Source of the DNA: Acaryochloris marina S15
GTDB taxonomy: Bacteria > Cyanobacteriota > Cyanobacteriia > Thermosynechococcales > Thermosynechococcaceae
Length of the DNA stretch: 32,000 nt
Direction of reading: 5' to 3'
Assembly (NCBI RefSeq): GCF_018336915.1
Contig: NZ_CP064923.1
Coordinates: forward strand, 3,840,001 to 3,872,000
Shown here: piece by piece, positions 5,691 to 29,587 of the stretch
How the letters are laid out: each line of letters opens with the position of its first letter
How positions within the stretch are numbered: the first letter of the stretch is position 1
Notes under the pieces: generated by a model
The model's input: only the letters and a program-made list of their open reading frames with translations
Told to the model about the DNA's origin: nothing
The model's database searches: none
Program-made: the position numbers and the translations under genes

Positions 5691-7016
5691 TTAGACCACC
5701 ACTTTGTTCTCTAGGACATTTTGCTGAGCCTGATGAACTCGATTTCGACCTGAAGTCTTAGCTCCATAGAGTGCCTGATCTGCTTGTTTGATCAGGTGCT
5801 CTTTCGTTTGGGCATCAGCCGGGAAGGTTGCAACGCCTAAACTAGCCGTCATTTCTACCTGCTGCAAGGAGGGCAGAATTACGGTCTCCTCAGCAATGGC
5901 TAGACGGATGCGATCTGCGATCGCAACACTATCATCACTATTGGTCTTAGGAAGAATGACCGCAAACTCCTCGCCCCCGTATCGACAAACAATATCCCCT
6001 GGTCGCACTTCCCGCTGCAGGAGTTGAGCTACTTCACAAAGGGCCAAATCCCCGGCCTGATGGCCAAAGGTATCATTGAGCTGCTTGAAATGATCAATAT
6101 CCACCATGATCAGCGAAACTTGATCGGTATTGCGCTGGGATTTCTCCACTTCCACCCTCAACCAGCGATTGAATTCCCGCCGATTGTAAACCTCCGTTAG
6201 ACCATCCAACGTGGCTAAACGGTACAAGTCTTTTTGGCTTTGCTCCAGCTTGGTCGCCATCAGGTTAAAGGTTTCTGCCAAATGACTCAATTCATCGCCT
6301 GAGGCCAAAGCAATCCGATGGCTCAATTCTCCCTTACCTAATTTTTCAACCCCTTCCTCCAAAGTTTGCAGTGGAACTGTAATAGAGCGAGACAGTCCAT
6401 AGGCAAACACGATTGCTAGCGCCAACGCCAAACCACAAATCATAGCGATGAGCTGTCTAACTTCTTTGCGAACGGCTTTTGCTTGGTTGGTATTGGCATC
6501 ATTTTGAAACACAATTAACCGATAATTCAGTTGTTGGACATCTTGCAAAATCATTCTGAGCTGGTCTTGCAGCTCAACTCTGGTAGATTGTGTATTTCCT
6601 GATTCAGAAATAGAGGGATCTAGGAGTTGTTTACACAGCTGGGAAATTCGTTGCCATTTTCGCTGTATTTCTAGAACAGAATTAAATTGGTGTGGATCAT
6701 GGTGGGAGAATTCTAAGAGCCTTTCCAAACTATTTGTGATGGCCTGACTTTTTTCCTGATACTTATCCCAAGTCATGGGGCGAGATGGCCCTACCGGAGA
6801 TGCCACCACATTTAAATCTAGAAATAATCCCTCAACCTCGGCCAGGGGGAACAAGGCTTCCCGACCCAAATTATCGTGCTTATCAAAACTACCTAATGCC
6901 CCTTCAAAGGAAATGATTGCCCCTGTAGCCAGCATGAGTAAGGGCACAAGCATGGCCCCTAAGCCCAATCGTAGGCGTTGGTTTAGGGAGGTTTTAGGTG
7001 TGGACCAAAAGGGCAT
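5691..7016 (-). CDS. Membrane sensor diguanylate cyclase (periplasmic/TM sensor - HAMP - GGDEF)
   Basis: An N-terminal TM segment and a second TM are followed by a HAMP-like SHRIALASGDELSHLAETFNLM. The GGDEF domain has an intact GGEEF and an RxxD I-site (RPGD 5 residues upstream). Confidence 0.9.
   Translation of the reverse strand: MPFWSTPKTSLNQRLRLGLGAMLVPLLMLATGAIISFEGALGSFDKHDNLGREALFPLAEVEGLFLDLNVVASPVGPSRPMTWDKYQEKSQAITNSLERLLEFSHHDPHQFNSVLEIQRKWQRISQLCKQLLDPSISESGNTQSTRVELQDQLRMILQDVQQLNYRLIVFQNDANTNQAKAVRKEVRQLIAMICGLALALAIVFAYGLSRSITVPLQTLEEGVEKLGKGELSHRIALASGDELSHLAETFNLMATKLEQSQKDLYRLATLDGLTEVYNRREFNRWLRVEVEKSQRNTDQVSLIMVDIDHFKQLNDTFGHQAGDLALCEVAQLLQREVRPGDIVCRYGGEEFAVILPKTNSDDSVAIADRIRLAIAEETVILPSLQQVEMTASLGVATFPADAQTKEHLIKQADQALYGAKTSGRNRVHQAQQNVLENKVVV
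5917..5924. repeat. HIP1 octamer GCGATCGC
   Basis: Exact match read in the sequence. Confidence 0.95.
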
Positions 7017-7027
7017 AGAAGTACTGG

Positions 7028-9391
7028 TTATTCCGCAATCGGTAAAGACAAGCTCGCTGGATTAGACCGCGCAGCAATAACCTGCTTAGCAGCTTCCGGC
7101 TTCAGGGGACGAGCAAACCAATAGCCTTGCCCAAGTTCACATCCTAAGGTGTGTAGATATTGCATTTGTTCTATCGTTTCAATCCCTTCTGCCACAACAT
7201 TCATCTCTAATCCATGGGCAAGGGCAATAATCGTTTTGACAATTTGATCTTGTCCTTGGCCAATCCCCCAGACAAAAGATCGATCGATTTTGAGGGTATT
7301 AATGGGCAAGTTATACAGATAATTCAAGGATGAATAGCCCGTGCCAAAATCATCCAAACTGAGGGAAATGCCTAAGTTTTGCAATTGCTCTAATCGATCG
7401 GTGACGTAGTAAGTAGACTCCATCAACACCGTTTCGGTAATTTCCAGTTTGAGATGCTGACCGGCGAGTCGGTGCAACTGTAGTAAAGATTCAACGGACT
7501 TAACAAAGTTAGGTTGCAGAAACTGTTGGCTGGACACGTTAATACTCATGGTCAACGGTACAGAAAATTGCTGCTCCCATGTCGATAGTTGTTGACAAGC
7601 CGCTTCTAAAACCCACTGTCCCAAAGGAATAATCAGCCCCGTTTCTTCGGCAACAGGAATGAACTTTTCGGGAGAAATCAGTCCTTGTTGAGGATGGTGC
7701 CATCGCAACAGGGCTTCAAAACCAACCAGCTGCTGTTGCCGCAAGCAGAAAATAGGTTGGTAATACAGTTGAAACGGGTTCTGCCCTTGATCAATCGCCT
7801 TGATGGCATATCTCAAGCTATTGCCTAACCATAAGCGAGAGCGAACTTGCCGATGCATTTTTTCATCAAAGACCACATAGCTCCCTCGACCATGGGCTTT
7901 GGCACGATACATGGCCGTATCTGCGTCTCGCAATAGTTCTTCTGGATGTTGAGACAAACTGGTGGAATGGGTAATACCCATACTGACTGAGGTAAATACT
8001 TCTTGCTGCTTGAGCTTCAGGGGCTTAGCCAAGGACCGCTGGATACGCTGGACAATTTTATGGGCTTGCTGATGATTCACCACTCCATCTAAGAGAATGG
8101 CAAACTCATCTCCTCCTAATCGAGCCAGCAAATCTTGAGGTCGCAAACTCTCTTTAAGCTGCTGAGTAATGGCAACGAGGAGCTGATCTCCCACACTATG
8201 TCCCAGGCTGTCATTGACGAGCTTAAAGTGATCGACATCCAAAAACAGAATGGCGAAATGACTCAGGGTAGGTTGGCGAGAATATCCTTCCAGTTGTTGC
8301 CGCTGGACCTGTTGCAGTTTGTGTTGCAGCTGTTCGTAGAAGTAGTCGCGACTCGGTAATCCGGTCAAGGTATCAAAGAGCGCTTTTTGTTTGAGTTCCT
8401 CGGCTGTCCGATGTCCCTCCATCGCAATACTCGCCAAATGGGTAGCGGTTTTAATGATGTTGAGATGATGAGCAGTCGGGAAACAGGGGACTTGGTGAGA
8501 CAGGGCAAAGGTGCCTAAGAGGTCTCCAGACTGGGAGAAAAAAGGCGTGGACCAACAGGCACGAATATTATGTTGTTGGGCAAACTCCCGGAAGTCCGCC
8601 CAGACGGGATCGCGTTGAGTATCTTCAACATAGACAGCCTTGCCACGAAAGGCAGCCGTCCCACAAGAGCCTGCATTTTCAGCAATCAGTAAATGATCAA
8701 AAGCGGCAGCCACTTCCGATGACAAGCTTGGCCCTGCTCCCATGCGCAGTTCCTGTTTGTGGGCATCCCGTAAGAGAATAGAGCACACCGTCCCTGGGGA
8801 CTGACTTTCAATCAATAAACATAAACTGCTGAGGATTGCATCTAGCCCTTGCCCCGTCGCCACATGTTCCAAGATTTGGGTCTGGGTTTGCAGTAGCGTT
8901 TCCGAACGTTTGCGCTGAATGGCCGTTGCTAACACCTGGGCCACACAGGCACCAAAACGGAGATCCTCTTGACTCCAATTCTGGGGCTCGGGAGTCAAAA
9001 TTTCCAGTAACCCTAGGGGGCGATCGGTTCCAGGGATGGGGATGCAAAGTCCGCTAATGAGTTGGGGTTGTGTCAGAGGAAGTTGTTCTGATTGCCCGGA
9101 AATAACGGCTGTTTGCCCAGTTTGCATCAATGCCTGTAACCACCGATAGCCCCGACTATCGATATCGGTGGCTTCCCCTAGGAGTGTCGCTTTTTGTTTT
9201 GCCACCAACCTCAGGGTATTGCTATCGGAGAGGACTTGCCACAAACTACAGTCTTCGACTGGCAAGTGGTGACTCATCAGTGCGATCGCATCTAAATACA
9301 AGTCAGTTAAGCTAGACCCGGACAATGCTTTCTGCCCTAATTCAGTTAGTTCCGACTGTCTATCTAGAGGATTTGTCGCAAAGTCATTCAT
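7028..9391 (-). CDS. GAF-GAF-GGDEF-EAL c-di-GMP turnover protein
   Basis: The GGDEF motif is intact (RLGGDEFAILL) with an RxxD (RPQD) I-site. EAL-domain signatures EALLRW, INVS, EITE, DDFGTGYSSL, KIDRSF, EGIET and GQGY are all present. The N-terminal ~350 aa are GAF-like. The start is uncertain: the ORF track uses TTG at 9472, and I prefer the first ATG at 9391 (MNDFATNPL). Confidence 0.88.
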   Translation of the reverse strand: MNDFATNPLDRQSELTELGQKALSGSSLTDLYLDAIALMSHHLPVEDCSLWQVLSDSNTLRLVAKQKATLLGEATDIDSRGYRWLQALMQTGQTAVISGQSEQLPLTQPQLISGLCIPIPGTDRPLGLLEILTPEPQNWSQEDLRFGACVAQVLATAIQRKRSETLLQTQTQILEHVATGQGLDAILSSLCLLIESQSPGTVCSILLRDAHKQELRMGAGPSLSSEVAAAFDHLLIAENAGSCGTAAFRGKAVYVEDTQRDPVWADFREFAQQHNIRACWSTPFFSQSGDLLGTFALSHQVPCFPTAHHLNIIKTATHLASIAMEGHRTAEELKQKALFDTLTGLPSRDYFYEQLQHKLQQVQRQQLEGYSRQPTLSHFAILFLDVDHFKLVNDSLGHSVGDQLLVAITQQLKESLRPQDLLARLGGDEFAILLDGVVNHQQAHKIVQRIQRSLAKPLKLKQQEVFTSVSMGITHSTSLSQHPEELLRDADTAMYRAKAHGRGSYVVFDEKMHRQVRSRLWLGNSLRYAIKAIDQGQNPFQLYYQPIFCLRQQQLVGFEALLRWHHPQQGLISPEKFIPVAEETGLIIPLGQWVLEAACQQLSTWEQQFSVPLTMSINVSSQQFLQPNFVKSVESLLQLHRLAGQHLKLEITETVLMESTYYVTDRLEQLQNLGISLSLDDFGTGYSSLNYLYNLPINTLKIDRSFVWGIGQGQDQIVKTIIALAHGLEMNVVAEGIETIEQMQYLHTLGCELGQGYWFARPLKPEAAKQVIAARSNPASLSLPIAE
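9282..9289. repeat. HIP1 octamer GCGATCGC
   Basis: Exact match read in the sequence. Confidence 0.95.
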
Positions 9392-9924
9392 AGAGCCAAC
9401 GATACAAATTTGGGGACCTGTTAAATATGCAATTGAATCACAAGGGTTAATACAACGAATGTTTGACTCCAATCACCCAATCTTAGGCAAACGGATTATT
9501 TCACTGTCCTAAATCCTAGCCAATTCTGTGGAGGGAGAAATATGTAAATCTACTGAAATTTTCTTTACAAAGATATTTATGTATCCAAACGAACGCTCAA
9601 TAAAACCTTCTATTCATTGATATAGCCCAATATTTTTTAGCAATCAAAAAACTTAAATCATACATAGAAATCTGTACTAATCCTTGCTCTCTCAACCTGT
9701 ATAAAAAGCTAAGCCTCAAAATATAGGCATCACTATAGATAGTTTTGATGTCATAGTTCTCTACATGCCTACAGTTCTCATCTCCTTTAATCAGTAAGCT
9801 TTGTAGGGCTATGTTGTCCTTTGCTCCATAATTTCTACTATAAAAACAGAAATAGTCTTCTACCACAAGGGACTATATTTCAATGGCACTGAAAATGTCT
9901 ACAGAACGGAATCTTTATGAATAT

Positions 9925-16713: not shown

Positions 16714-17691
16714 CTAGTCGTAACACCAGGTATCAAAGGATCGGCTGGGCGGTGCCTGATTCGATCGCACCGGTCGATGAAAGATGGATTTAGTATTAGT
16801 TGGCTTCTTGCGGGTGGTGGCTAATGCTGAGGACTTTTGCGTTTTTCTAGAGGTTGAACTGGTTTGCAGCTCAGCTACTTGTTTTTGCAACCGATCATTC
16901 TCTTTTGCTAATCGCACTGCATCCTGGGTGGTTTGCTCCAGCTTCTCTTTAATCGCATCTGTTTGATGGGTCGATTTCTGCAACGCTGTCAGGGCCGTTT
17001 TCTGCTCAGCCAGCTGTGACTCCAATTGAGCCACCTTCTTCTGCAAAGAGGTTTCTTTGGTTTGAGCTGCCTTTAAATCTTTAGTTAGGGCACTGACTTT
17101 CACTTTTAAATCAGTGTTAATGGATTGAGCACTACTGGCTGCGGAGCTGCTTGCGGTTGAGGCAGGTTTTGCTGCTGCTTTCTGTGCCGTAGAGGCGGCA
17201 GGCTTAGCCTTCTTTGCTGCCGCCGTCTTTGTGGCTGTTGTTTTCCGACTAGAAGATCGGCTGGACGTTGCCTTTTTAGCAGTAGAAGATTTAGTCGTTG
17301 ATTTTTTAGCTGCGGGTGCAGCAGCTTTGGTTGTTGACGTTGACTTCTTAGCTGCTGGTGAAGCAGCTTTGGTTGTTGACGTTGACTTCTTAGCTGCTGG
17401 TGAAGCAGTCTTAGTAGTGGAAGCAGCCTTAGGGGTCGATTTCTTAGCTGCGGGTGCAGCCTTAGTAGCCCCGGCAGTCTTTTTTTCCGTAGTTTTTTTG
17501 GCAGTGGTCGATTTAGCCGTACTTTTCTGGGCTGTCGTTGTCTTTTTCGCTGCAGCTTTTTTCGCTGATGTGGCTTTCTTTTGGGTCGTTGACGCGGCTG
17601 GTTTTGCACCTGCGCCATCTTTTTGATCAGGGGTCGCAGTTTTAGTTGCTTCTTCCCGTAATAAATCTGACAAACTTTTCTTCGTAGCCAT
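16714..17691 (-). CDS. 325-aa disordered K/A/T/S-rich, Q-rich coiled-coil protein with a C-terminal Trp; candidate ParA partner (McdB-like)
   Basis: The ATG at 17689-17691 overlaps the parA-like TAA (17691-17693) as TAATG. Domain order: [15 protein letters not shown], then ~170 aa of AAKK/STTKAA low complexity, then a heptad-like Q/K/E/L segment (about 16864-17121), then a basic tail ending SFDTWCYD. Two other frames are also open because of the repeats. This frame was chosen for the coupling and the coiled coil. Confidence 0.75.
   Translation of the reverse strand: MATKKSLSDLLREEATKTATPDQKDGAGAKPAASTTQKKATSAKKAAAKKTTTAQKSTAKSTTAKKTTEKKTAGATKAAPAAKKSTPKAASTTKTASPAAKKSTSTTKAASPAAKKSTSTTKAAAPAAKKSTTKSSTAKKATSSRSSSRKTTATKTAAAKKAKPAASTAQKAAAKPASTASSSAASSAQSINTDLKVKVSALTKDLKAAQTKETSLQKKVAQLESQLAEQKTALTALQKSTHQTDAIKEKLEQTTQDAVRLAKENDRLQKQVAELQTSSTSRKTQKSSALATTRKKPTNTKSIFHRPVRSNQAPPSRSFDTWCYD
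17321..17404. repeat. Perfect 2 x 42-bp tandem repeat (encodes SPAAKKSTSTTKAA twice), flanked by degenerate copies
   Basis: 17321-17362 and 17363-17404 are identical (gcagctttggttgttgacgttgacttcttagctgctggtgaa). The unit at 17279-17320 is a diverged copy. Confidence 0.95.
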
Positions 17692-18401
17692 TAACTGTCC
17701 CAATCCCGCTTAATTTCATCAACAACGCGGCAATAATCTGCTTTTGCCTCTTTACTATATTTCCCTTTCCATTGTGTAATCGGCTGTCCTTCCAAAGCTG
17801 CCCGTTCATGCGCCTTATAACTACGTACAAAGGCATGAAAAGCCGGAATGCCTAACTCCATCAAAGTGTTTTGAGCATCCAATGCTTCTCGCAAGCTTCG
17901 AGGATCGACCCGAGTTAGTAATACCCGATGAGCCACTCCCGATGGTTTGACTAATGTCCGCACCGTTTCAATTAGAACGGCAATTTCCATTGGGGCAGGA
18001 GGCGTAGGGAGCACTAAATAGTCAACCACAGGAATGACCATTTTCAAAATCTCTGACTCTAGACCTGGTGGCGTATCTACGACGACCAGCTCTTGCTTAC
18101 TGGAACGGCGCAAATTTTTCAATTCTTTCGCGCTAGCCCCAGATTGGACTTGGAATTTAAGGGAATTTGTATCACGCTGGGTCCACCAAGTTGCGGACCC
18201 TTGCGGATCGGCGTCAATTAGGAGAACTTGATGAGCTTCTGCAAATACTGCTGTGAGATTAACAGCCGTGGTGGTTTTACCAACACCACCTTTGCCATTG
18301 AGGACGGCGACAACCTTGGTTTTTGAAGATTTAGAAGGCAACTTGGGCACCGCTAATGATTGCCAATAGTAAGCAGGAGGCTCTGACTTTGCAACTTGCA
18401 A
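17691..18401 (-). CDS. ParA/MinD-family deviant Walker-A ATPase (small, no HTH domain); McdA-like candidate
   Basis: Motifs present: [16 protein letters not shown] (KGGxxGKT with the signature Lys), [14 protein letters not shown] and VVVDTPPG. The start is uncertain: TTG at 18401 in the ORF track, with no ATG before the Walker A. Confidence 0.88.
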
Positions 18402-18427
18402 AAGACTCCTGGGATGACTATACCGCT

Positions 18428-18441
18428 TTATTGTCTACTAA
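18428..18441. promoter_or_regulatory. TTA-N8-TAA dyad in the parA-like/lysR divergent intergenic region
   Basis: TTATTGTCTACTAA was read directly. As far as I recall, this general dyad shape is used by CbbR/CmpR-type LysR regulators. Binding here is not demonstrated. Confidence 0.3.
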
Positions 18442-18508
18442 TCCCTTTTTTAGCCAGTGTTTGCGGCCTTGGCATTCTCTGCGATCCCAGGGAAGGTTTC
18501 TTAGGTGA

Positions 18509-18524
18509 ATAGACAATAATCTAT
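18509..18524. promoter_or_regulatory. Palindrome ATAGA-N6-TCTAT, copy 1 (upstream of the LysR gene)
   Basis: ATAGACAATAATCTAT lies 57 nt upstream of the LysR ATG. A near-identical copy is at 21095-21110. Confidence 0.45.
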
Positions 18525-18571
18525 TACAATAAAGCCAGACAACGACTTTAGTCTATACGCAATCTTTCTGT

Positions 18572-18579
18572 GCGATCGC
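18572..18579. repeat. HIP1 octamer GCGATCGC
   Basis: Exact match, ending 1 nt before the LysR ATG. Confidence 0.95.
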
Positions 18580-18580
18580 A

Positions 18581-19495
18581 ATGCAGCCAACTCTACATCA
18601 ACTGAAAGTGTTTGAAACTGCTGCCCGCCATGGCAGCTTTACTCGCGCCGCTGAAGAACTTTACCTGACACAACCGACCGTATCAATTCAGATCAAGCAG
18701 CTGTCCAAGACGGTTGGTTTCCCTTTATTCGAGAAGTTGGGAAAACAGCTTTACTTAACAGAAGTTGGCAATCGGTTATTTAGCACCTGTCAATCCATTT
18801 TTGAAGAACTTGATCAATTCGAGATGATTGTCAGTGATTTGCAGGGGATGACCCAAGGCAAGTTACATCTTGCTACAGTCACTACCTGTAAGTATTTTGT
18901 CCCTCGTTTACTGGGTAATTTTTGTGACCAATATCCTGGCATTGATATTTCTCTGAAAATCACTAACCATCTCCAGCTGGAAAAGCGGATGATGGAAAAC
19001 CGAGATGACCTCTACATCCTCAGTCATCCTCCCCAACATATGGATCTCAAAGTTCAGCCTGTCATTAAGAATCCACTTGTAGTGGTAGCTCCACCCAACC
19101 ATCCCCTCGTGGGTCAGAAGAATATCGATATTTCTGCTCTCAATGATGAACGCTTTATTATGCGGGAGTCAGGCTCGGGAACTCGCCATGCTGTTCAGGC
19201 TCTATTCAACAAACATAAAGTCAATGTTGAAATCAAACTAGAACTGGGCAGTAATGAAGCGATCAAACAAGCGATTGCAGGAGGATTGGGAATCTCAGTG
19301 CTATCGCGCCACTCCCTTAATGGTCGAGAATATACTGACCTAGCCATTCTGGATGTCGAACATTTTCCCATTGAGCAGCAATGGTCGGTTGCCTATTTAT
19401 CGGGTAAACATCTCTCTGTTGTGGCCGAAACCTTCCTACACTATTTAGTCTCGGTCACTGATCATGCTGAAATGCCTTGGATACACTTCAAATAA
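18581..19495 (+). CDS. LysR-family transcriptional regulator, CbbR/CmpR-like
   Basis: The N-terminal wHTH MQPTLHQLKVFETAARHGSFTRAAEELYLTQPTVSIQIKQL and later blocks (RESGSGTR, LGSNEAIKQAIAGGLGISVLS) resemble the CbbR/CmpR subgroup as I remember it. It is divergent from the parA-like gene. Confidence 0.9.
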   Translation: MQPTLHQLKVFETAARHGSFTRAAEELYLTQPTVSIQIKQLSKTVGFPLFEKLGKQLYLTEVGNRLFSTCQSIFEELDQFEMIVSDLQGMTQGKLHLATVTTCKYFVPRLLGNFCDQYPGIDISLKITNHLQLEKRMMENRDDLYILSHPPQHMDLKVQPVIKNPLVVVAPPNHPLVGQKNIDISALNDERFIMRESGSGTRHAVQALFNKHKVNVEIKLELGSNEAIKQAIAGGLGISVLSRHSLNGREYTDLAILDVEHFPIEQQWSVAYLSGKHLSVVAETFLHYLVSVTDHAEMPWIHFK

Positions 19496-19590
19496 GATTT
19501 ATCAGTAACTTTTAAGAACAACGCAGCCACCTAACTCCTGAGATCAAACTTCCAGGGTTATCTGGGAAAGAAAACACGGTACTCACAGCA

Positions 19591-19636
19591 CTTGAGCCAG
19601 TGGAGGTCAGACAGCTCTTTCCCCCACTGGCTCAAG
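19591..19636. repeat. 13-bp perfect GC-rich inverted repeat (CTTGAGCCAGTGG, 20-nt loop) between convergent genes
   Basis: Arms 19591-19603 and 19624-19636 are exact complements. It lies 96 nt after the LysR stop and 22 nt after the stop of the minus-strand orphan. There is no clean U-tract on either strand. Confidence 0.85.
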
Positions 19637-19657
19637 GTTTCTGGAAACGGGATGTTT

Positions 19658-20338
19658 CTAGTTCACCCCATTTACCTGCTGGCTTAAATCATTAACACTT
19701 TGGGACATGATGGCTAAAGCTTGCTGAAGGCTTTCTACATCAGCCCCGGCGCCATTAGGTAGTGCGGGGATCGTAGAGGGTGAAACCGGTAAGGGAATCC
19801 CAATCCCTCCGGTAAAGATAGAATCAACCTCCATTAGACTAGCTCCCGTAGAAGTGGGAACTGCTGTGGAGAGCTGATCAAATTCAGTTTCGCCAGCGTT
19901 GGGCAGAAAAGTACCACGATGTTCAGGGGTAAAGAGGAGTTGGCGATTCAGCAACGCTGGAAAAGGGAATCGTTGCCGGACAAAAACTTCGACATAACCC
20001 CGAAACTCAACAGTGTCGACATTGGGGTCGAGGGTGAGAATATCAGGCTGCAAAATGATTAAGCCTGTGTCCTTGGCTCTGAGTCCAAAGTCATAACAAC
20101 TATCAGCATCCAGAGTGCCAAAATCGTTAGAACCACCGGTATCTCGAATTACAATTAGCTTACTGGTATCGAGAGCTGGGGTTGTTGCATTAAATTTCAA
20201 TCGCAATAACACATCAAAGTTATGGGGATTAGAAACTGTTAGAAAATATCCCTGCAAAATTTTCCGGTTGGAGTTAGATATATTTCCTTCTGCAGGTGTA
20301 ATATCTTTAAGGAGAAGTTCAAAGGTTGAAAGTAGCAT
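19658..20338 (-). CDS. Hypothetical protein (226 aa from ATG), no family recognised
   Basis: This is a long ORF with normal composition for the window. The ATG at 20336-20338 is preceded by AAGGAC, and the ORF-track start at 20368 is a TTG. The product starts MLLSTFELLLKDITPAEGN and has a helical Q-rich C-terminus. Confidence 0.6.
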   Translation of the reverse strand: MLLSTFELLLKDITPAEGNISNSNRKILQGYFLTVSNPHNFDVLLRLKFNATTPALDTSKLIVIRDTGGSNDFGTLDADSCYDFGLRAKDTGLIILQPDILTLDPNVDTVEFRGYVEVFVRQRFPFPALLNRQLLFTPEHRGTFLPNAGETEFDQLSTAVPTSTGASLMEVDSIFTGGIGIPLPVSPSTIPALPNGAGADVESLQQALAIMSQSVNDLSQQVNGVN

Positions 20339-21094
20339 AGAAATGTCCTTTGTGTGATGGTTGATCAATAAATTTCAGTGAGGATCATTGAATGTATTTA
20401 TGAGTAACGATTACTGAGATAAACAGAAGAAAAATGTTCTTTTCAAGTAAAGATCTCAAATTTATCTTCCATAGCCTTTTTAAGGCAAAATAACAAAGCA
20501 GATAGCTTGTTAGTGCCATTGAGAGTTCCTAGGATACTTGAGCATAAAAGTTAGAGGCTAAGCTCTAAACATATGCAGCTTCAATGCCTGACACCTAAAT
20601 TGACTTTTGAAATCTACTAGTGTAGTCATCTTGTTTAGATAGTAGAAGCTCAATGAATTCACCCTGAAAAGGCCATTAAAGAGAGAAGATTTTGATTTGT
20701 TTTAACCTGTCTTCAGTTCGTTAATCTGAAATCAATATAATCCAAAAAAACTTAGATAAAAGTGATTATCTTCAATATTTTGTGTGACATAAATCATTGA
20801 AAATTTCTTCTTTGTATAAAATATTTTTTATGCTTATAAATAATATTATATGCTTTTTCTGTAGTATTTTTGTTGCAGGAAAGATGCAATAAAAACAAGT
20901 CCAGTATGATTCTAATTGGGTCGCATCTATAGGCTAAGTAATATAGAAATATTTTTAAAATTCGTACCTTTAAAAACTACTGTGTAGAAATCAATGGCCA
21001 TCAATACAGGCGAGAATGATACGGAATTCAGCTCTAGGTAAAGGTTTCTATATGGTTTGATTTCGATTTAAATCTCCAATCTTCTGACTTGAAG

Positions 21095-21110
21095 ATAGAG
21101 ACTAATCTAT
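21095..21110. promoter_or_regulatory. Palindrome ATAGA-N6-TCTAT, copy 2 (upstream of ppx/gppA)
   Basis: ATAGAGACTAATCTAT lies 84 nt upstream of the ppx ATG. With flanks it matches copy 1 at 17 of 20 positions (ATAGA.A.TAATCTATT.CA). Confidence 0.45.
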
Positions 21111-21193
21111 TGCAGAGATTCAAACCCCCGTTGACCACTGTCCCCAAATCCGCATACAGTTTCTAGCAGGATCACCCAGGGGCCAAACGAGCC

Positions 21194-22792
21194 ATGCAAA
21201 CCATTGCCGCTATTGATGTGGGAACCAATTCGATCCACATGGTTGTGGTGAAAGTTAACCCTGAAATTCCAGCATTCAATATTATTGATACTGAGAAAAG
21301 TACCGTTCGCCTAGGGGAAGGCAGCAAAGATACTGGGAAGCTGCATCCGGATGCGATCGCAAGAGCAATTGCCGCCTTGCGCAGATGTCAAGAAGTTGCC
21401 GCAGCCTGCAAAGTCGAACAGATCCAAGCGGTTGCCACCAGTGCTGTCCGGGAAGCCCTCAATGGTCGGACCTTTATTCGTGCCGTTGAGTCCGAACTCG
21501 GGCTTAAAATCAATGTCATATCCGGTCCAGAAGAAGCCCGGCGAATTTACCTCGGGGTCTTGTCCGGTATTGAATTTAATAACAAGCCCCACGTCATGAT
21601 TGATATTGGGGGTGGATCAACCGAGCTCATTTTAGGGAATGGTCAAGATCCGCGCTCCCTCAGCAGTACCAAGGTAGGAGCGGTACGGCTGACTGAGGAA
21701 TATATCACCACCGATCCGGTCAGTACTAGCGAATTTGAGCGGTTACAGGCCTATGTTCGAGGAATGTTGGAATGGCCGGTTGAAGAGTTGCGTTCCCATC
21801 TCTCTCCCGATGAAGTGCCAACCCTTATTGGCACCTCCGGAACAATTGAAAGCATTCTCAAACTGCATGCCTGCGAGGTTATGGGAGCTTGTCCCACCTC
21901 TCTTCATGGCCACGTCCTCACCCTTGATGACCTGAACGACCTCATCCACAAGCTGCGAAAGCTCAATTACGACGAACGCTGCAAAATGCCTGGGATGACG
22001 GAGCGGCGAGCAGAAATTATTTTAGCCGGAGCTGTAATTTTGGCTGAAACAATGACCCTGCTGCACTTAGATTCCATTACCACCTGTGAACGCGCTCTAC
22101 GAGAAGGCATCGTGGTGGACTGGATGATGAAGCAAGGATTGATTGAAGATCGACTCCGCTACCAGGGTTCCGTGCGAGAACGCAGCGTCATGAACTTGGC
22201 CCATCAGTACCATGTGGAGTTATCAACTGCTGAGCGAATCGCTGATTTTGCCGTCGCTTTATTTGATCAAACCCAAGGCTCTCTCCATCATTGGGGAATA
22301 GACGAGCGTCATTCCCTGTGGGCAGCCGCTATTTTGCATAACTGCGGGCATTACATCAGCCATTCCGCCCATCATAAACATTCCTACTACTTAATCCGTC
22401 ATGGCGGCTTGTTGGGCTATACCGATGCCGAAGTCGAGATTATTGCCAACTTAGCCCGGTATCACCGCAAAGGAGCTCCCAAAAAGAAGCATGAGAACTA
22501 TCAGAACTTGGTGAATAAAGCCCAACGTCAGATCGTCGACCAGCTCAGTGCCATTCTTAAGTTAGCGGTCGCCTTGGATCGGCGGCAGATAGGTGCGATT
22601 GAATCCCTACATTGTGAAATTGATTCAGATACCATTACCCTCCATCTCCAAGCGAGTCAAACCGACGATGACTGTGCTTTAGAGCTATGGAGTTTAGAGA
22701 TGAAAAAAGCTTGCTTTGAATCCGAATTTGATATGACTCTGGTCGCTCAACTGGCTGAATCTGCTCCCAGCCCTGATTTACAGCTAGCCTGA
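21194..22792 (+). CDS. ppx: Ppx/GppA-family exopolyphosphatase / guanosine pentaphosphate phosphohydrolase with a C-terminal HD domain
   Basis: ASKHA phosphate motifs AAIDVGTNSIHMVV and DIGGGSTEL are present, with a C-terminal HD-type region HNCGHYISHSAHHKHSYYLI. Confidence 0.92.
   Translation: MQTIAAIDVGTNSIHMVVVKVNPEIPAFNIIDTEKSTVRLGEGSKDTGKLHPDAIARAIAALRRCQEVAAACKVEQIQAVATSAVREALNGRTFIRAVESELGLKINVISGPEEARRIYLGVLSGIEFNNKPHVMIDIGGGSTELILGNGQDPRSLSSTKVGAVRLTEEYITTDPVSTSEFERLQAYVRGMLEWPVEELRSHLSPDEVPTLIGTSGTIESILKLHACEVMGACPTSLHGHVLTLDDLNDLIHKLRKLNYDERCKMPGMTERRAEIILAGAVILAETMTLLHLDSITTCERALREGIVVDWMMKQGLIEDRLRYQGSVRERSVMNLAHQYHVELSTAERIADFAVALFDQTQGSLHHWGIDERHSLWAAAILHNCGHYISHSAHHKHSYYLIRHGGLLGYTDAEVEIIANLARYHRKGAPKKKHENYQNLVNKAQRQIVDQLSAILKLAVALDRRQIGAIESLHCEIDSDTITLHLQASQTDDDCALELWSLEMKKACFESEFDMTLVAQLAESAPSPDLQLA
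21353..21360. repeat. HIP1 octamer GCGATCGC
   Basis: Exact match read in the sequence. Confidence 0.95.
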
Positions 22793-28474: not shown

Positions 28475-29587
28475 CTATTGGGACGTAAACAGCGCTCCAG
28501 GTCTTAATCGTAGCTTGCCTCGTCGTTTGTTTTTTTGCTGATGGAGTGCTTGCTGTAAGCGTCCTACTAATTCTAAGGTTCGTCGCGACTCCAAAGAGGC
28601 ACAATCTTTTTGATGAGTCTGGACGCGGTTGCGTCCCTGTTGCTTAGCCACATACAAAGCACGATCGGCCGCTTCAATCAGGATAGAAGGGGCCACATTC
28701 TCATCAGGCACCTGACTGGCAACCCCTAAGCTCGCGGTAACATTATTTCCTGTTAAAGAGAGTTGGTGAGGAATCTCAAGATTATGAATAATACTTCGGA
28801 TAGCTTCTGCGACTTGGGTTGCCCCATCTAAATCAGTATTCGGTAAGATAATGGCAAACTCTTCACCACCATAGCGAGCAACACAGTCGGCAGGTCGTTT
28901 AGCCACTTTAGCAATCGCTTGAGCAACTTTGCGCAGGCAGTCATCTCCAGCTTGATGACCATAGGTATCGTTAAACGCTTTGAAGTGATCTACATCGCAC
29001 ATAATCAAAGACAAGGGATGATTCTCTCGACATAATCTGTTCCATTCCGATAAAAAGGTTTCATCGAAGCAACGGCGATTATTGACCTGAGTTAAACCAT
29101 CTATCGTTACCAGTTGTTCCAGCTGCAGGTTGGCAATTTCAAGCTGTTCAGACAGAGATTGCAACGTTCGATTTTTGGCATCCAGTTCTAGTAATAAGCT
29201 TTGGCGTTCAACCGCATACTGAATAGAGCGACGTAAATGGCTACTTGTAAACCGTCCTTTAACTAAATAGTCTTGAGCACCTTCTTGCATCGCTGTCAGA
29301 GCGACCGTCTCATCTGAATTGCCACTCAATATAATCACGGGAGTTAAAGGAAATGCTTGATTGACTTGGTGGAAAAGATCAAGTCCTACCGTTCCTGCAA
29401 TACACAAATCTAGGAGAACGAGATCAATCGCAATCTCAGACTCTAATAACTCAAACCCAGCCACTAGGTTGGAACAGTGTAAAAGATCTGTAGGGAAATC
29501 ATGACTGACATTCAGCAATTCCCGAACAATTTCCACGTCCTGCTCGTCATCATCGATCATGAGGATATTGAGATGAGCAGCTTGCAT
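28475..29587 (-). CDS. Response regulator (REC) - coiled-coil - GGDEF diguanylate cyclase
   Basis: REC features ILMIDDDEQD, DLVLLDL and the lysine (K) in DYLVKG are present. GGEEF is intact with an RxxD (RPAD) I-site. Confidence 0.9.
   Translation of the reverse strand: MQAAHLNILMIDDDEQDVEIVRELLNVSHDFPTDLLHCSNLVAGFELLESEIAIDLVLLDLCIAGTVGLDLFHQVNQAFPLTPVIILSGNSDETVALTAMQEGAQDYLVKGRFTSSHLRRSIQYAVERQSLLLELDAKNRTLQSLSEQLEIANLQLEQLVTIDGLTQVNNRRCFDETFLSEWNRLCRENHPLSLIMCDVDHFKAFNDTYGHQAGDDCLRKVAQAIAKVAKRPADCVARYGGEEFAIILPNTDLDGATQVAEAIRSIIHNLEIPHQLSLTGNNVTASLGVASQVPDENVAPSILIEAADRALYVAKQQGRNRVQTHQKDCASLESRRTLELVGRLQQALHQQKNKRRGKLRLRPGALFTSQ

What the first reader, a model, noticed from the sequence alone, without database searches (positions are those of the whole stretch)
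18509..21110. Same ATAGA-N6-TCTAT palindrome in two promoter regions (LysR gene and ppx/orphan-gene spacer)
ATAGACAATAATCTAT (18509-18524) lies 57 nt upstream of the CbbR/CmpR-like gene. ATAGAGACTAATCTAT (21095-21110) lies 84 nt upstream of ppx/gppA. The two share the 5+5 palindrome, 4 of 6 spacer bases and flanking bases, giving consensus ATAGA.A.TAATCTATT.CA with 17 of 20 identical. A 10-base-specified palindrome is expected about 0.03 times in 32 kb of random sequence, somewhat more in AT-rich DNA. Both copies fall in intergenic regions. This suggests a shared dimeric-regulator operator. The adjacent LysR protein, through autoregulation, is the obvious candidate. That would link polyphosphate/(p)ppGpp metabolism, or the divergent orphan gene at 19658-20338, to that regulator. 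A separate TTA-N8-TAA dyad sits at 18428-18441 in the same divergent region.
Basis: partly seen in the sequence, partly recalled or inferred. Interest (0 to 1): 0.45.

Follow-up and report, generated by a model that had tools for sequence, protein, structure and literature searches.

The report
Two NdhR (CcmR) operator boxes
Both palindromes are real copies of the known binding motif of the cyanobacterial carbon-status regulator NdhR/CcmR: one is its ordinary self-regulation site, and the other is a lineage-specific site next to the promoter of a polyphosphate/(p)ppGpp phosphatase gene, which may place that gene under carbon control.

Summary
ATAGACAATAATCTAT (18509-18524) and ATAGAGACTAATCTAT (21095-21110) are the only ATAGA-N6-TCTAT matches in the window, against 0.04 expected.

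The adjacent LysR gene (18581-19495) is an NdhR/CcmR-type regulator. It is 64% identical to Synechocystis NdhR (PDB 5Y2V), and 10 of 11 listed effector-contact residues are kept. The palindrome is the published NdhR consensus ATAG-N8-CTAT.

Site 1 is the ordinary autoregulatory operator. It abuts a conserved TACAAT, and its half-sites are kept in five related lineages. The same box lies upstream of NdhR-like genes in about 30 metagenome loci (32 of 36 hits fall in 6% of the sequence).

Site 2 is the new part.
- It sits 20 nt upstream of the -35 box of a ppx promoter that is conserved in eight lineages, centred at about -65.
- Its half-sites are invariant in three lineages whose 6-nt spacers all differ (Fisher p=0.008).
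- It lies inside a variable inserted segment and is missing from the next relatives and from 31 other cyanobacterial ppx loci.

Site 2 is therefore a probable NdhR site restricted to this lineage. Its target (ppx or a leftward transcript) and the sign of regulation are not established. It is a new member of a known kind, of modest interest.

The parts
18509..18524 (.). Site 1: NdhR/CcmR box ATAGA-CAATAA-TCTAT, the autoregulatory operator of the LysR gene
   Evidence: Exact match. Half-sites are invariant in the window, L003, L087, L091 and L095, with spacers CAATAA, CAATCA and AAAAAA. The box is degenerate in L088. The same box type lies upstream of NdhR-like genes in about 30 metagenome loci.
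18525..18530 (+). TACAAT, a -10-like hexamer immediately after site 1 (predicted ndhR promoter; predicted TSS about 18537)
   Evidence: TTA[C/T]AAT is invariant in all six aligned lineages. The promoter role is inferred, not mapped.
18581..19495 (+). NdhR/CcmR-type LysR regulator gene (304 aa)
   Evidence: HTH_1 plus LysR_substrate domains. Best solved-structure match is 5Y2V, Synechocystis NdhR (E 2e-127, 64% identity, DNA-binding domain 82%). Ten of 11 effector-contact residues are kept. A neighbour-joining tree places it beside the Synechocystis NdhR clade.
19587..19639 (+). Strong hairpin between the convergent ndhR and the hypothetical gene; probable terminator
   Evidence: dG -36.7 kcal/mol, z -5.2 against shuffles.
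19658..20338 (-).
   Evidence: About 84 homologous clusters and no Pfam match. Absent between ndhR and ppx in L087 and L088. The model is a beta-sandwich with a C-terminal helix and has no PDB match.
20709..20848 (.). Conserved island inside the 855-nt AT-rich spacer; function unknown
   Evidence: 74% identity to L095, while most of the spacer cannot be aligned.
21095..21110 (.). Site 2: NdhR/CcmR box ATAGA-GACTAA-TCTAT
   Evidence: Exact match. Half-sites are kept in L003 (spacer TGCCAA) and L095 (spacer TACAAC). Variable positions are 0 of 10 in the half-sites against 4 of 6 in the spacer, p=0.008. It is the top PWM hit in the window when read on the minus strand.
21118..21124 (-). Auxiliary element TTTGAAT (read on the minus strand), 7 nt from the box, between the box and the ppx -35
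   Evidence: It matches the TTT[C/T]GAT-N7 flank seen next to boxes in metagenome loci. The block T.CAGAGATTCA is conserved in the window, L003 and L095.
21131..21160 (+). ppx core promoter TTGACC-N18-TACAGT (predicted TSS about 21167)
   Evidence: Found by the promoter scan. CCGTTGACC...TACAGT...TAGCAG is conserved in eight lineages. The TSS is inferred.
21194..22792 (+). Ppx/GppA-family phosphatase gene
   Evidence: TIGR03706 (E 3e-85) and Pfam Ppx-GppA.

Best explanation
Both palindromes are operators of the NdhR/CcmR type (ATAG-N8-CTAT, here the stricter ATAGA-N6-TCTAT). They are recognised by the LysR-type regulator encoded at 18581-19495.

**Site 1.** The box directly abuts the conserved TACAAT -10-like hexamer of the regulator's own promoter. 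Bound NdhR would block RNA polymerase there. In Synechocystis the DNA-binding form is the 2-oxoglutarate form, present at high carbon. This is the classical negative autoregulation of ndhR.

**Site 2.** The box, together with a TTTGAAT-like auxiliary half-site 7 bp away, spans about -72 to -43 relative to the predicted start of a conserved ppx promoter. This is the geometry of a LysR recognition site at -65 plus an activation site near -45. An NdhR tetramer bound there would modulate ppx transcription according to the carbon/nitrogen signal. I lean slightly towards stimulation when bound, but the sign is not determined. The same complex may also shut a weak leftward promoter whose -10-like hexamer (TAGATT) lies inside the box.

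**Shown:** sequence identity to the known motif, the identity of the regulator, enrichment of the box at NdhR-like genes, and conservation patterns.

**Inferred:** binding, transcription start sites, and the direction of regulation.
For: - **Regulator identity.** The best solved-structure match is Synechocystis NdhR, 5Y2V (E 2e-127). Identity is 64% overall and 82% in the DNA-binding domain. T101, T102, K104, Y105, H130, N164, R195, T201, S224 and N225 are conserved (residue list from PMC13249358). The neighbour-joining tree puts the protein beside the NdhR clade and away from S. elongatus CmpR.
- **Motif.** ATAG-N8-CTAT is the published NdhR consensus, and ccmR itself is a listed target.
- **Enrichment.** Among 80 NdhR/CmpR/CbbR-like loci, 32 of 36 ATAG-N8-CTAT hits lie within 330 nt upstream of the regulator gene (24 kb of 411 kb). 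Nearly all are ATAGA-N6-TCTAT.
- **Link to a known target.** A locus where the regulator is followed by an NdhF3-like gene carries ATAGA...TCTAT boxes (5-nt spacer) upstream of both genes.
- **Site 1 conservation.** Half-sites are identical in five lineages with three different spacers, and the box is always followed by TA[C/T]AAT.
- **Site 2 conservation.** Half-sites are identical in the window, L003 and L095, with spacers GACTAA, TGCCAA and TACAAC (p=0.008). The box keeps a fixed distance (20-21 nt) from the -35 hexamer. It lies inside a 143-nt island that is 82% identical, within a spacer that otherwise cannot be aligned, in lineages whose genes are only about 82% identical.
- **ppx promoter.** TTGACC-N18-TACAGT is conserved in eight lineages.
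- **Model score.** Site 2 with its flank scores 21-24 bits on a matrix built from independent metagenome sites, at or just below the range of the training sites.
Against: - There is no binding or expression data.
- Site 2 is absent upstream of ppx in L087, L088, L089, L091, L092, L093, L094 and in 31 broader cyanobacterial ppx loci. It is therefore dispensable and recent.
- It lies in an indel segment. Homology with relatives that lack the insert begins only at 21128.
- NdhR is described mainly as a repressor whose boxes overlap promoters, whereas site 2 lies upstream of the -35.
- The orientation-specific features of site 2 (T at box position 7, and the flank) fit a promoter reading leftwards, away from ppx.
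- The same box also occurs at non-cyanobacterial cbbR-RuBisCO loci. A paralogous LysR regulator could therefore be the binder.
- Similarity of the regulatory domain to NdhR (61.5%) is only modestly higher than to CmpR (55.8%).
- R267, a contact for the 2-phosphoglycolate carboxyl group, is Q here.
Confidence: 0.6

Rival explanations
1. Site 2 is a real NdhR operator, but its target is a leftward, unannotated transcript rather than ppx. That transcript would be a non-coding RNA or a very long 5' leader of the conserved hypothetical gene at 19658-20338. The promoter's -10 (TAGATT on the minus strand, 21109-21104) lies inside the box, as in many cyanobacterial ndhR promoters. NdhR would repress it at high carbon.
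For: - In metagenome ndhR promoters the left half of the box doubles as an extended -10, TGnTAGA[C/T]T. Position 7 is T in 24 of 28 sites.
- On the minus strand, site 2 reads TAGATT, TAGATT and TAGAGT in the three lineages. On the plus strand it never forms TAnnnT.
- The PWM score is 21-24 bits in the minus orientation against 3-7 bits in the plus orientation.
- Conservation extends about 44 nt to the left of the box.
- NdhR is reported to control several non-coding RNAs.
- Site 2 is found only in lineages that carry the inserted gene.
Against: - There is no TG or -35 element for such a promoter, and no conserved small ORF, Rfam match or terminator in the spacer.
- The hypothetical gene starts 757 nt away.
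- Members of that gene family in other contexts (L096, L097, L178) have no box.
- L091 keeps the gene but has lost the site.
Confidence: 0.22
2. Site 2 is bound by a different regulator: a paralogous CbbR-family LysR protein (CmpR- or RbcR-like) or an unrelated dimeric factor. Its resemblance to the ndhR box reflects specificity shared across the family.
For: - The ATAGA-N6-TCTAT box with the TTTYGAT flank also occurs at non-cyanobacterial cbbR loci divergent from RuBisCO genes.
- DNA-binding domains in this clade are very similar.
- The -65/-45 geometry is typical of activators such as CmpR or CbbR.
Against: - Published motifs for the cyanobacterial paralogues differ: CmpR is TTA-N7/8-TAA and RbcR is ATTA(G/A)-N5-(C/T)TAAT.
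- Neither motif is enriched in the window or near the sites.
- The neighbouring regulator carries the identical box at its own promoter.
Confidence: 0.1
3. Site 2 has no function. It is either a chance palindrome in AT-rich DNA or a relic carried in with the inserted segment.
For: - The site is absent from most relatives, and in L091 it appears to have decayed to ATAGATGCTAT.
- It lies in an indel segment.
- The within-species comparison has little power, because the flanks are 98% identical.
- The empirical background of about 0.1 per 32 kb is higher than the shuffle estimate.
Against: - It is an exact 10-of-10 match against 0.04 expected.
- The half-sites are retained in L095 despite about 18% divergence in the genes and a largely unalignable spacer, and the spacers differ in three lineages.
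- An auxiliary flank element is conserved at the spacing seen in genuine sites.
Confidence: 0.08

Closest known systems
NdhR (CcmR, Sll1594) regulon operators of Synechocystis sp. PCC 6803, consensus ATAG-N8-CTAT (Klahn et al. 2015, as cited in PMC13249358)
   Same: The motif is the same in both copies. A closely related regulator is encoded next door. One copy lies in the regulator's own promoter, matching the known autoregulation of ccmR. The effector-contact residues for 2-oxoglutarate and 2-phosphoglycolate are almost all conserved.
   Different: ppx is not among the listed targets, which are the ndhF3 operon, sbtA/B, bicA, nhaS1, ccmR and some ncRNAs. Site 2 lies upstream of the -35 at about -65, not over the promoter. 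The ppx site occurs only in one small Acaryochloris-related clade.
Classical LysR-type control region (recognition site near -65 plus activation site near -35/-45 of the target, as at CbbR-cbbL and CmpR-cmpA promoters)
   Same: Site 2 is a dyad centred about -64.5 from the predicted ppx TSS. A weaker element lies 7 bp closer to the promoter and ends 6 bp before the -35. The same box-plus-flank arrangement is seen at cbbR-RuBisCO loci.
   Different: No LysR gene is transcribed divergently from site 2. The regulator gene lies 1.6 kb upstream in the same orientation, and the activation-site assignment rests on a short, weakly defined element.
CmpR operators (TTA-N7/8-TAA)
   Same: A TTA-N8-TAA dyad exists at 18428-18441 in the same intergenic region.
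   Different: It occurs at chance frequency (6 against 8.2 expected). It overlaps the conserved promoter and ribosome-binding region of the ParA-like gene, and nothing ties it to a regulator.

Membership tests
NdhR/CcmR operator (ATAG-N8-CTAT) | Sequence matches the consensus palindrome | tested here: met
   Both sites are exact matches, and they also fit the stricter ATAGA-N6-TCTAT.
NdhR/CcmR operator (ATAG-N8-CTAT) | [quoted passage not shown] | tested here: met
   Site 1 lies 57 nt before the ndhR ATG and abuts TACAAT. Site 2 lies 84 nt before the ppx ATG and 20 nt before the conserved -35. The promoters are predicted, not mapped.
NdhR/CcmR operator (ATAG-N8-CTAT) | A cognate NdhR-type regulator is encoded in the genome | tested here: met
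   The gene at 18581-19495 is 64% identical to 5Y2V and sits on the NdhR side of the tree.
NdhR/CcmR operator (ATAG-N8-CTAT) | Conserved in orthologous promoters | tested here: inconclusive
   Site 1 is conserved in five lineages and about 30 metagenome loci. Site 2 is conserved in only 3 lineages and is absent from 7 closer relatives and 31 other ppx loci.
NdhR/CcmR operator (ATAG-N8-CTAT) | Bound by NdhR in vitro or in vivo, modulated by 2-oxoglutarate and 2-phosphoglycolate | not testable with these tools
   This needs EMSA, SPR or ChIP.
NdhR/CcmR operator (ATAG-N8-CTAT) | Target derepressed in an ndhR mutant or at low CO2 | not testable with these tools
   No expression data exist for this organism. 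No paper in the held library links NdhR with ppx.
NdhR/CcmR protein (LysR-type, CbbR clade) | N-terminal HTH_1 and C-terminal LysR substrate-binding domains | tested here: met
   PF00126 (1e-20) and PF03466 (5e-48).
NdhR/CcmR protein (LysR-type, CbbR clade) | Effector-contact residues of Synechocystis NdhR | tested here: met
   T101, T102, K104, Y105, H130, N164, R195, T201, S224 and N225 are identical. R267 is replaced by Q (residue list).
NdhR/CcmR protein (LysR-type, CbbR clade) | Orthology to NdhR rather than to CmpR or RbcR | tested here: inconclusive
   The neighbour-joining tree puts it beside the NdhR clade. Regulatory-domain identity is 61.5% to NdhR against 55.8% to CmpR. There is no bootstrap support and no full genome in which to count paralogues.
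Classical LysR divergent control region (recognition site at -65 plus activation site) | Dyad near -65 of the target promoter, with a second weaker site towards the -35 | tested here: inconclusive
   The centre is at -64.5 from the predicted TSS, and the TTTGAAT element lies at about -46. The TSS is not mapped and the auxiliary element carries little information.
Classical LysR divergent control region (recognition site at -65 plus activation site) | Regulator gene transcribed divergently from the target | tested here: not met
   No LysR gene or remnant lies to the left of site 2. ndhR lies 1.6 kb upstream on the same strand.
CmpR operator (TTA-N7/8-TAA) | Motif present above chance near a regulated promoter | tested here: not met
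   6 matches against 8.2 expected in the window.

The most novel reading that the evidence does not exclude
In a small Acaryochloris-related clade, the carbon/nitrogen-balance sensor NdhR has acquired direct control of the Ppx/GppA phosphatase gene. Control would work through a complete LysR-type module (box at -65 plus an auxiliary site at -45) that arrived or arose with an inserted segment. NdhR would act here as an activator-type regulator rather than a repressor, coupling polyphosphate or (p)ppGpp turnover to inorganic-carbon status. The same module may also gate a leftward, carbon-responsive non-coding transcript.
Probability: 0.35. Interest if true: 0.45.

Novelty: new member of a known kind. 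Interest (0 to 1): 0.3.

Why it matters
Site 1 only confirms textbook autoregulation of a known regulator through a known motif.

Site 2 would add a polyphosphate/(p)ppGpp phosphatase to the NdhR regulon in some cyanobacteria. It would tie phosphate-polymer or alarmone turnover to the 2-oxoglutarate/2-phosphoglycolate signal. It also offers a natural comparison for testing how a regulon gains a member, because close relatives exist with the site, without it, and with a decayed copy.

The metagenome survey also shows that the practical consensus is ATAGA-N6-TCTAT, with a TTTYGAT flank 7 bp away. The same box serves non-cyanobacterial cbbR loci. Both points help regulon prediction.

Tried and rejected
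- **Klahn 2015 and Jiang 2018 papers.** Neither is held. The motif and residue information come from the 2026 review instead.
- **Rfam scan of 18000-21500.** No match.
- **Small ORFs and LysR remnants in the 855-nt spacer.** Nothing is conserved and there is no similarity to LysR proteins.
- **Terminators in the spacer.** None found.
- **General NdhR box at ppx.** None within 400 nt upstream of ppx in 31 cyanobacterial loci.
- **Stray box hits in L014 and L016.** Their neighbours (EamA, CobO, GGDEF) are uninformative.
- **General NdhR box at the hypothetical-gene family.** None in L096, L097 or L178.
- **Function of the hypothetical protein.** No Pfam or NCBIfam match. The AlphaFold model (pLDDT 76) is a beta-sandwich with a C-terminal helix and has no meaningful PDB match (TM below 0.3).
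- **RbcR motif, CmpR motif and a CRP-like TGTGA-N6-TCACA site at 20783.** All are at or below chance.
- **Gene neighbours of the metagenome regulators, as a way to label NdhR against CmpR.** Mostly unrelated genes. Only L130 has an NdhF3-like neighbour.
- **Literature link between NdhR and ppx.** None found. The only related item is that Synechocystis Ppx protein is more abundant in carbon-rich conditions.
Full report
**1. Observation**

They are the only ATAGA-N6-TCTAT matches on either strand of the 32-kb window, against 0.04 expected from dinucleotide-preserving shuffles. The looser ATAG-N8-CTAT also gives only these two, against 0.29 expected. One-mismatch variants are at chance.

The 17-of-20 identity and the distances to the start codons (57 and 84 nt) are correct. 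Both sites are intergenic. An empirical background from unrelated loci is somewhat higher than the shuffle estimate: 2 boxes in about 670 kb of ppx loci, roughly 0.1 per 32 kb. It is still low.

**2. The regulator**

The ORF at 18581-19495 has HTH_1 and LysR_substrate domains. Its best solved-structure match is 5Y2V, the Synechocystis NdhR/CcmR tetramer (E 2e-127 over the full length). Identity is 64% overall and 82% in the DNA-binding domain.

A 2026 review lists the residues that contact 2-oxoglutarate and 2-phosphoglycolate in NdhR (PMC13249358). Ten of the eleven I could map are identical here, and R267 is Q. A neighbour-joining tree of the regulatory domains places the window protein and its two closest relatives beside the clade containing Synechocystis NdhR, apart from S. 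elongatus CmpR. The margin in raw identity is modest: 61.5% to NdhR against 55.8% to CmpR. I therefore call it NdhR/CcmR-type with good but not complete confidence.

**3. The motif is already known**

The same review gives ATAG-N8-CTAT as the consensus NdhR-binding motif. [quoted passage not shown] Both palindromes are exact instances.

The paralogous regulators have different published motifs: CmpR is TTA-N7/8-TAA and RbcR is ATTA(G/A)-N5-(C/T)TAAT. Neither is enriched here. It overlaps the conserved promoter and ribosome-binding region of the ParA-like gene.

**4. Independent test of the box**

A metagenome scan with an NdhR alignment returned 80 NdhR/CmpR/CbbR-like loci. Of 36 ATAG-N8-CTAT matches in 411 kb, 32 lie within 330 nt upstream of the regulator gene, which is 24 kb of sequence. 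Almost all are ATAGA-N6-TCTAT.

The aligned sites show three further features:
- a TTT[C/T]GAT element 7 nt upstream of the box;
- TG just before the box;
- T at box position 7, so that in many cyanobacterial ndhR promoters the left half-site doubles as an extended -10 (TGnTAGA[C/T]T).

About half of the box-bearing loci are cyanobacterial, judged by the presence of HIP1 repeats. The rest are non-cyanobacterial cbbR genes divergent from RuBisCO or aldolase genes. The box is therefore common to this whole LysR clade. One locus has the regulator followed by an NdhF3-like gene. It carries ATAGA-N5-TCTAT boxes in front of both genes, which ties the box type to a known NdhR target.

**5. Site 1**

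The organism is an Acaryochloris-related cyanobacterium. The closest named Ppx (82% identical) is from Acaryochloris sp. RU_4_1. In relatives, the site 1 half-sites are identical in L003, L087, L091 and L095, while the spacer reads CAATAA, CAATCA or AAAAAA. L088 has a degenerate copy. Variable positions are 0 of 10 in the half-sites and 3 of 6 in the spacer (p=0.036).

The box is always followed directly by TA[C/T]AAT. A bound regulator would therefore occlude the -10. This is ordinary negative autoregulation.

**6. Site 2**

*Position relative to the ppx promoter.* The ppx core promoter TTGACC-N18-TACAGT (21131-21160) is conserved in eight lineages. Site 2 ends 20 nt before the -35. Its centre is at about -64.5 from the predicted TSS (about 21167).

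*Presence and absence across lineages.*

| Lineage | Inserted segment | Site 2 |
|---|---|---|
| Window | present | ATAGA-GACTAA-TCTAT |
| L003/L006 (same species; the ~240 nt around the site are 98% identical) | present | spacer TGCCAA |
| L095 (genes about 82% identical) | present | spacer TACAAC, 21 nt before the -35 |
| L091 | present | lost; only ATAGATGCTAT remains, possibly a deletion remnant |
| L087, L088 | absent | none |
| L089, L092-L094 and 31 broader cyanobacterial ppx loci | not examined | none within 400 nt |

*Conservation.* Across the three site-bearing lineages, 0 of 10 half-site positions vary against 4 of 6 spacer positions (p=0.008). The box lies in a 143-nt island that is 82% identical, within a spacer that is otherwise hardly alignable.

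*The inserted segment.* In L087 and L088, ndhR sits directly upstream of ppx with a spacer of 139-149 nt. The hypothetical gene, the AT-rich spacer and site 2 are all missing. Homology with the window resumes only at 21128, just before the -35. Site 2 therefore belongs to a variable inserted or deleted segment and is a recent, clade-restricted feature.

**7. Architecture and orientation of site 2**

Between the box and the -35 lies ATTCAAA (21118-21124). On the minus strand this reads TTTGAAT, exactly 7 nt from the box, which matches the flank seen in the metagenome sites. The block T.CAGAGATTCA is conserved in the three lineages.

With a matrix built only from cyanobacterial metagenome sites, site 2 scores 21.2 bits read on the minus strand, where the training range is 22.3-37.5. 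It scores 3.1 bits on the plus strand. On the minus strand, box positions 2-7 read TAGATT, TAGATT and TAGAGT in the three lineages. On the plus strand they never form TAnnnT.

Two readings follow:
- **Reading a.** Relative to ppx, the arrangement is -35, then the auxiliary site, then the box. This is the layout of cbbL promoters activated by CbbR, that is, a recognition site at -65 plus an activation site near -45.
- **Reading b.** The box carries a leftward promoter of the ndhR type, which NdhR would repress. It would drive a transcript into the AT-rich spacer.

Reading b gets no further support from the spacer: it holds no conserved small ORF, Rfam match, terminator or LysR-gene remnant. Members of the hypothetical-gene family in other genomes lack the box. 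I therefore favour ppx as the relevant neighbour but cannot exclude the leftward transcript. The two readings are compatible with each other.

**8. Mechanism, with what is shown and what is inferred**

*Shown:* motif identity, the type of regulator, enrichment of the box, conservation patterns and promoter conservation.

*Inferred:* the 2-oxoglutarate-bound NdhR tetramer (high carbon) binds both sites. At site 1 it blocks the ndhR -10. At site 2 it occupies about -72 to -43 of the ppx promoter and modulates ppx.

The sign of regulation is open. The geometry suggests stimulation. Synechocystis Ppx protein is more abundant in carbon-rich than in low-CO2 conditions (PMC9175036), which would fit activation by DNA-bound NdhR. 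That organism has no known NdhR site at ppx, however, and NdhR is described predominantly as a repressor.

A strong hairpin after ndhR (19587-19639, dG -36.7 kcal/mol, z -5.2) suggests that ppx is not co-transcribed with ndhR in this lineage. In relatives without the insert the two genes are adjacent and co-directional.

**9. Novelty and verdict**

Site 1 is an already-known kind of site. Site 2 is a plausible new, lineage-specific member of the NdhR regulon. No paper in the held library links NdhR with ppx. I rate the finding as a new member of a known kind, with interest 0.3.

My estimates are:
- site 1 is an NdhR autoregulatory operator: about 0.9;
- site 2 is bound by NdhR: about 0.65;
- ppx is the regulated gene: about 0.45.

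Noticed in passing
window 19496-21127; L087 4852-5000; L088 4862-5000: The whole interval between ndhR and the ppx core promoter is an indel. It holds the hypothetical gene, the 855-nt AT-rich spacer and site 2. In L087 and L088, ndhR sits directly upstream of ppx with a spacer of 139-149 nt. In the window, L003, L091 and L095 the segment is present.
   Followed up: yes
window 19658-20338 (-); L096, L097, L178: The 'orphan' is a conserved cyanobacteria-specific family of about 84 clusters with no Pfam match. The predicted fold is a beta-sandwich with a C-terminal helix, and it has no PDB match. In every context seen it is preceded by a long (535-908 nt) AT-rich upstream region. In L178 it lies next to IS6/IS240-type transposase genes, which suggests mobility.
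   Followed up: partly
window 20709-20848: This is a conserved island (74% identical to L095) in the middle of an otherwise unalignable spacer. It includes TGTGACATAAATCATTG, a CRP-like half-match that is not above chance in the window, and AAATAATATTA. Its function is unknown. It may be the promoter or leader of the hypothetical gene.
   Followed up: partly
L122, L132, L134, L139 (RuBisCO large subunit divergent from the LysR gene), L140 (class II aldolase): Non-cyanobacterial cbbR loci carry the same ATAGA-N6-TCTAT box, with a TTTYGAT element 7 nt away, between cbbR and the RuBisCO gene. The cyanobacterial 'NdhR motif' therefore seems to be the ancestral recognition site of the whole CbbR clade.
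   Followed up: partly
L130 2930-2990 and 4440-4470: In a locus where the regulator is followed by an NdhF3-like gene, the boxes have a spacer one base shorter (ATAGA-N5-TCTAT). They lie upstream of both the regulator and the ndhF3-like gene. Exact-spacing searches will miss such variants.
   Followed up: no
L003/L006 7514-7529 against window 21095-21110: Three substitutions are clustered within the 6-nt spacer of site 2, in a 240-nt region that is otherwise 98% identical. This could be a multi-nucleotide mutation event or relaxed or adaptive change confined to the spacer.
   Followed up: no
window 18551-18557: GTCTATA, which contains a further TCTAT half-site, lies 27 nt downstream of site 1. 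It is invariant in all six lineages, including L088 where the main box is degenerate. It may be a second regulator contact or part of an alternative -10.
   Followed up: no
window 18402-18433: The block AAGACTCCTGGGA.GACTATACCGCTTTATTG is strongly conserved. Read on the minus strand it gives TATAGT and then AGGAG just before the TTG start of the ParA-like gene (17691-18401). This is probably that gene's promoter and ribosome-binding site.
   Followed up: partly
window 5691-9472 and 28475-29587: The window holds several c-di-GMP signalling genes: HAMP-GGDEF, GAF-GGDEF-EAL and a response-regulator-GGDEF protein. They are unrelated to the finding.
   Followed up: no
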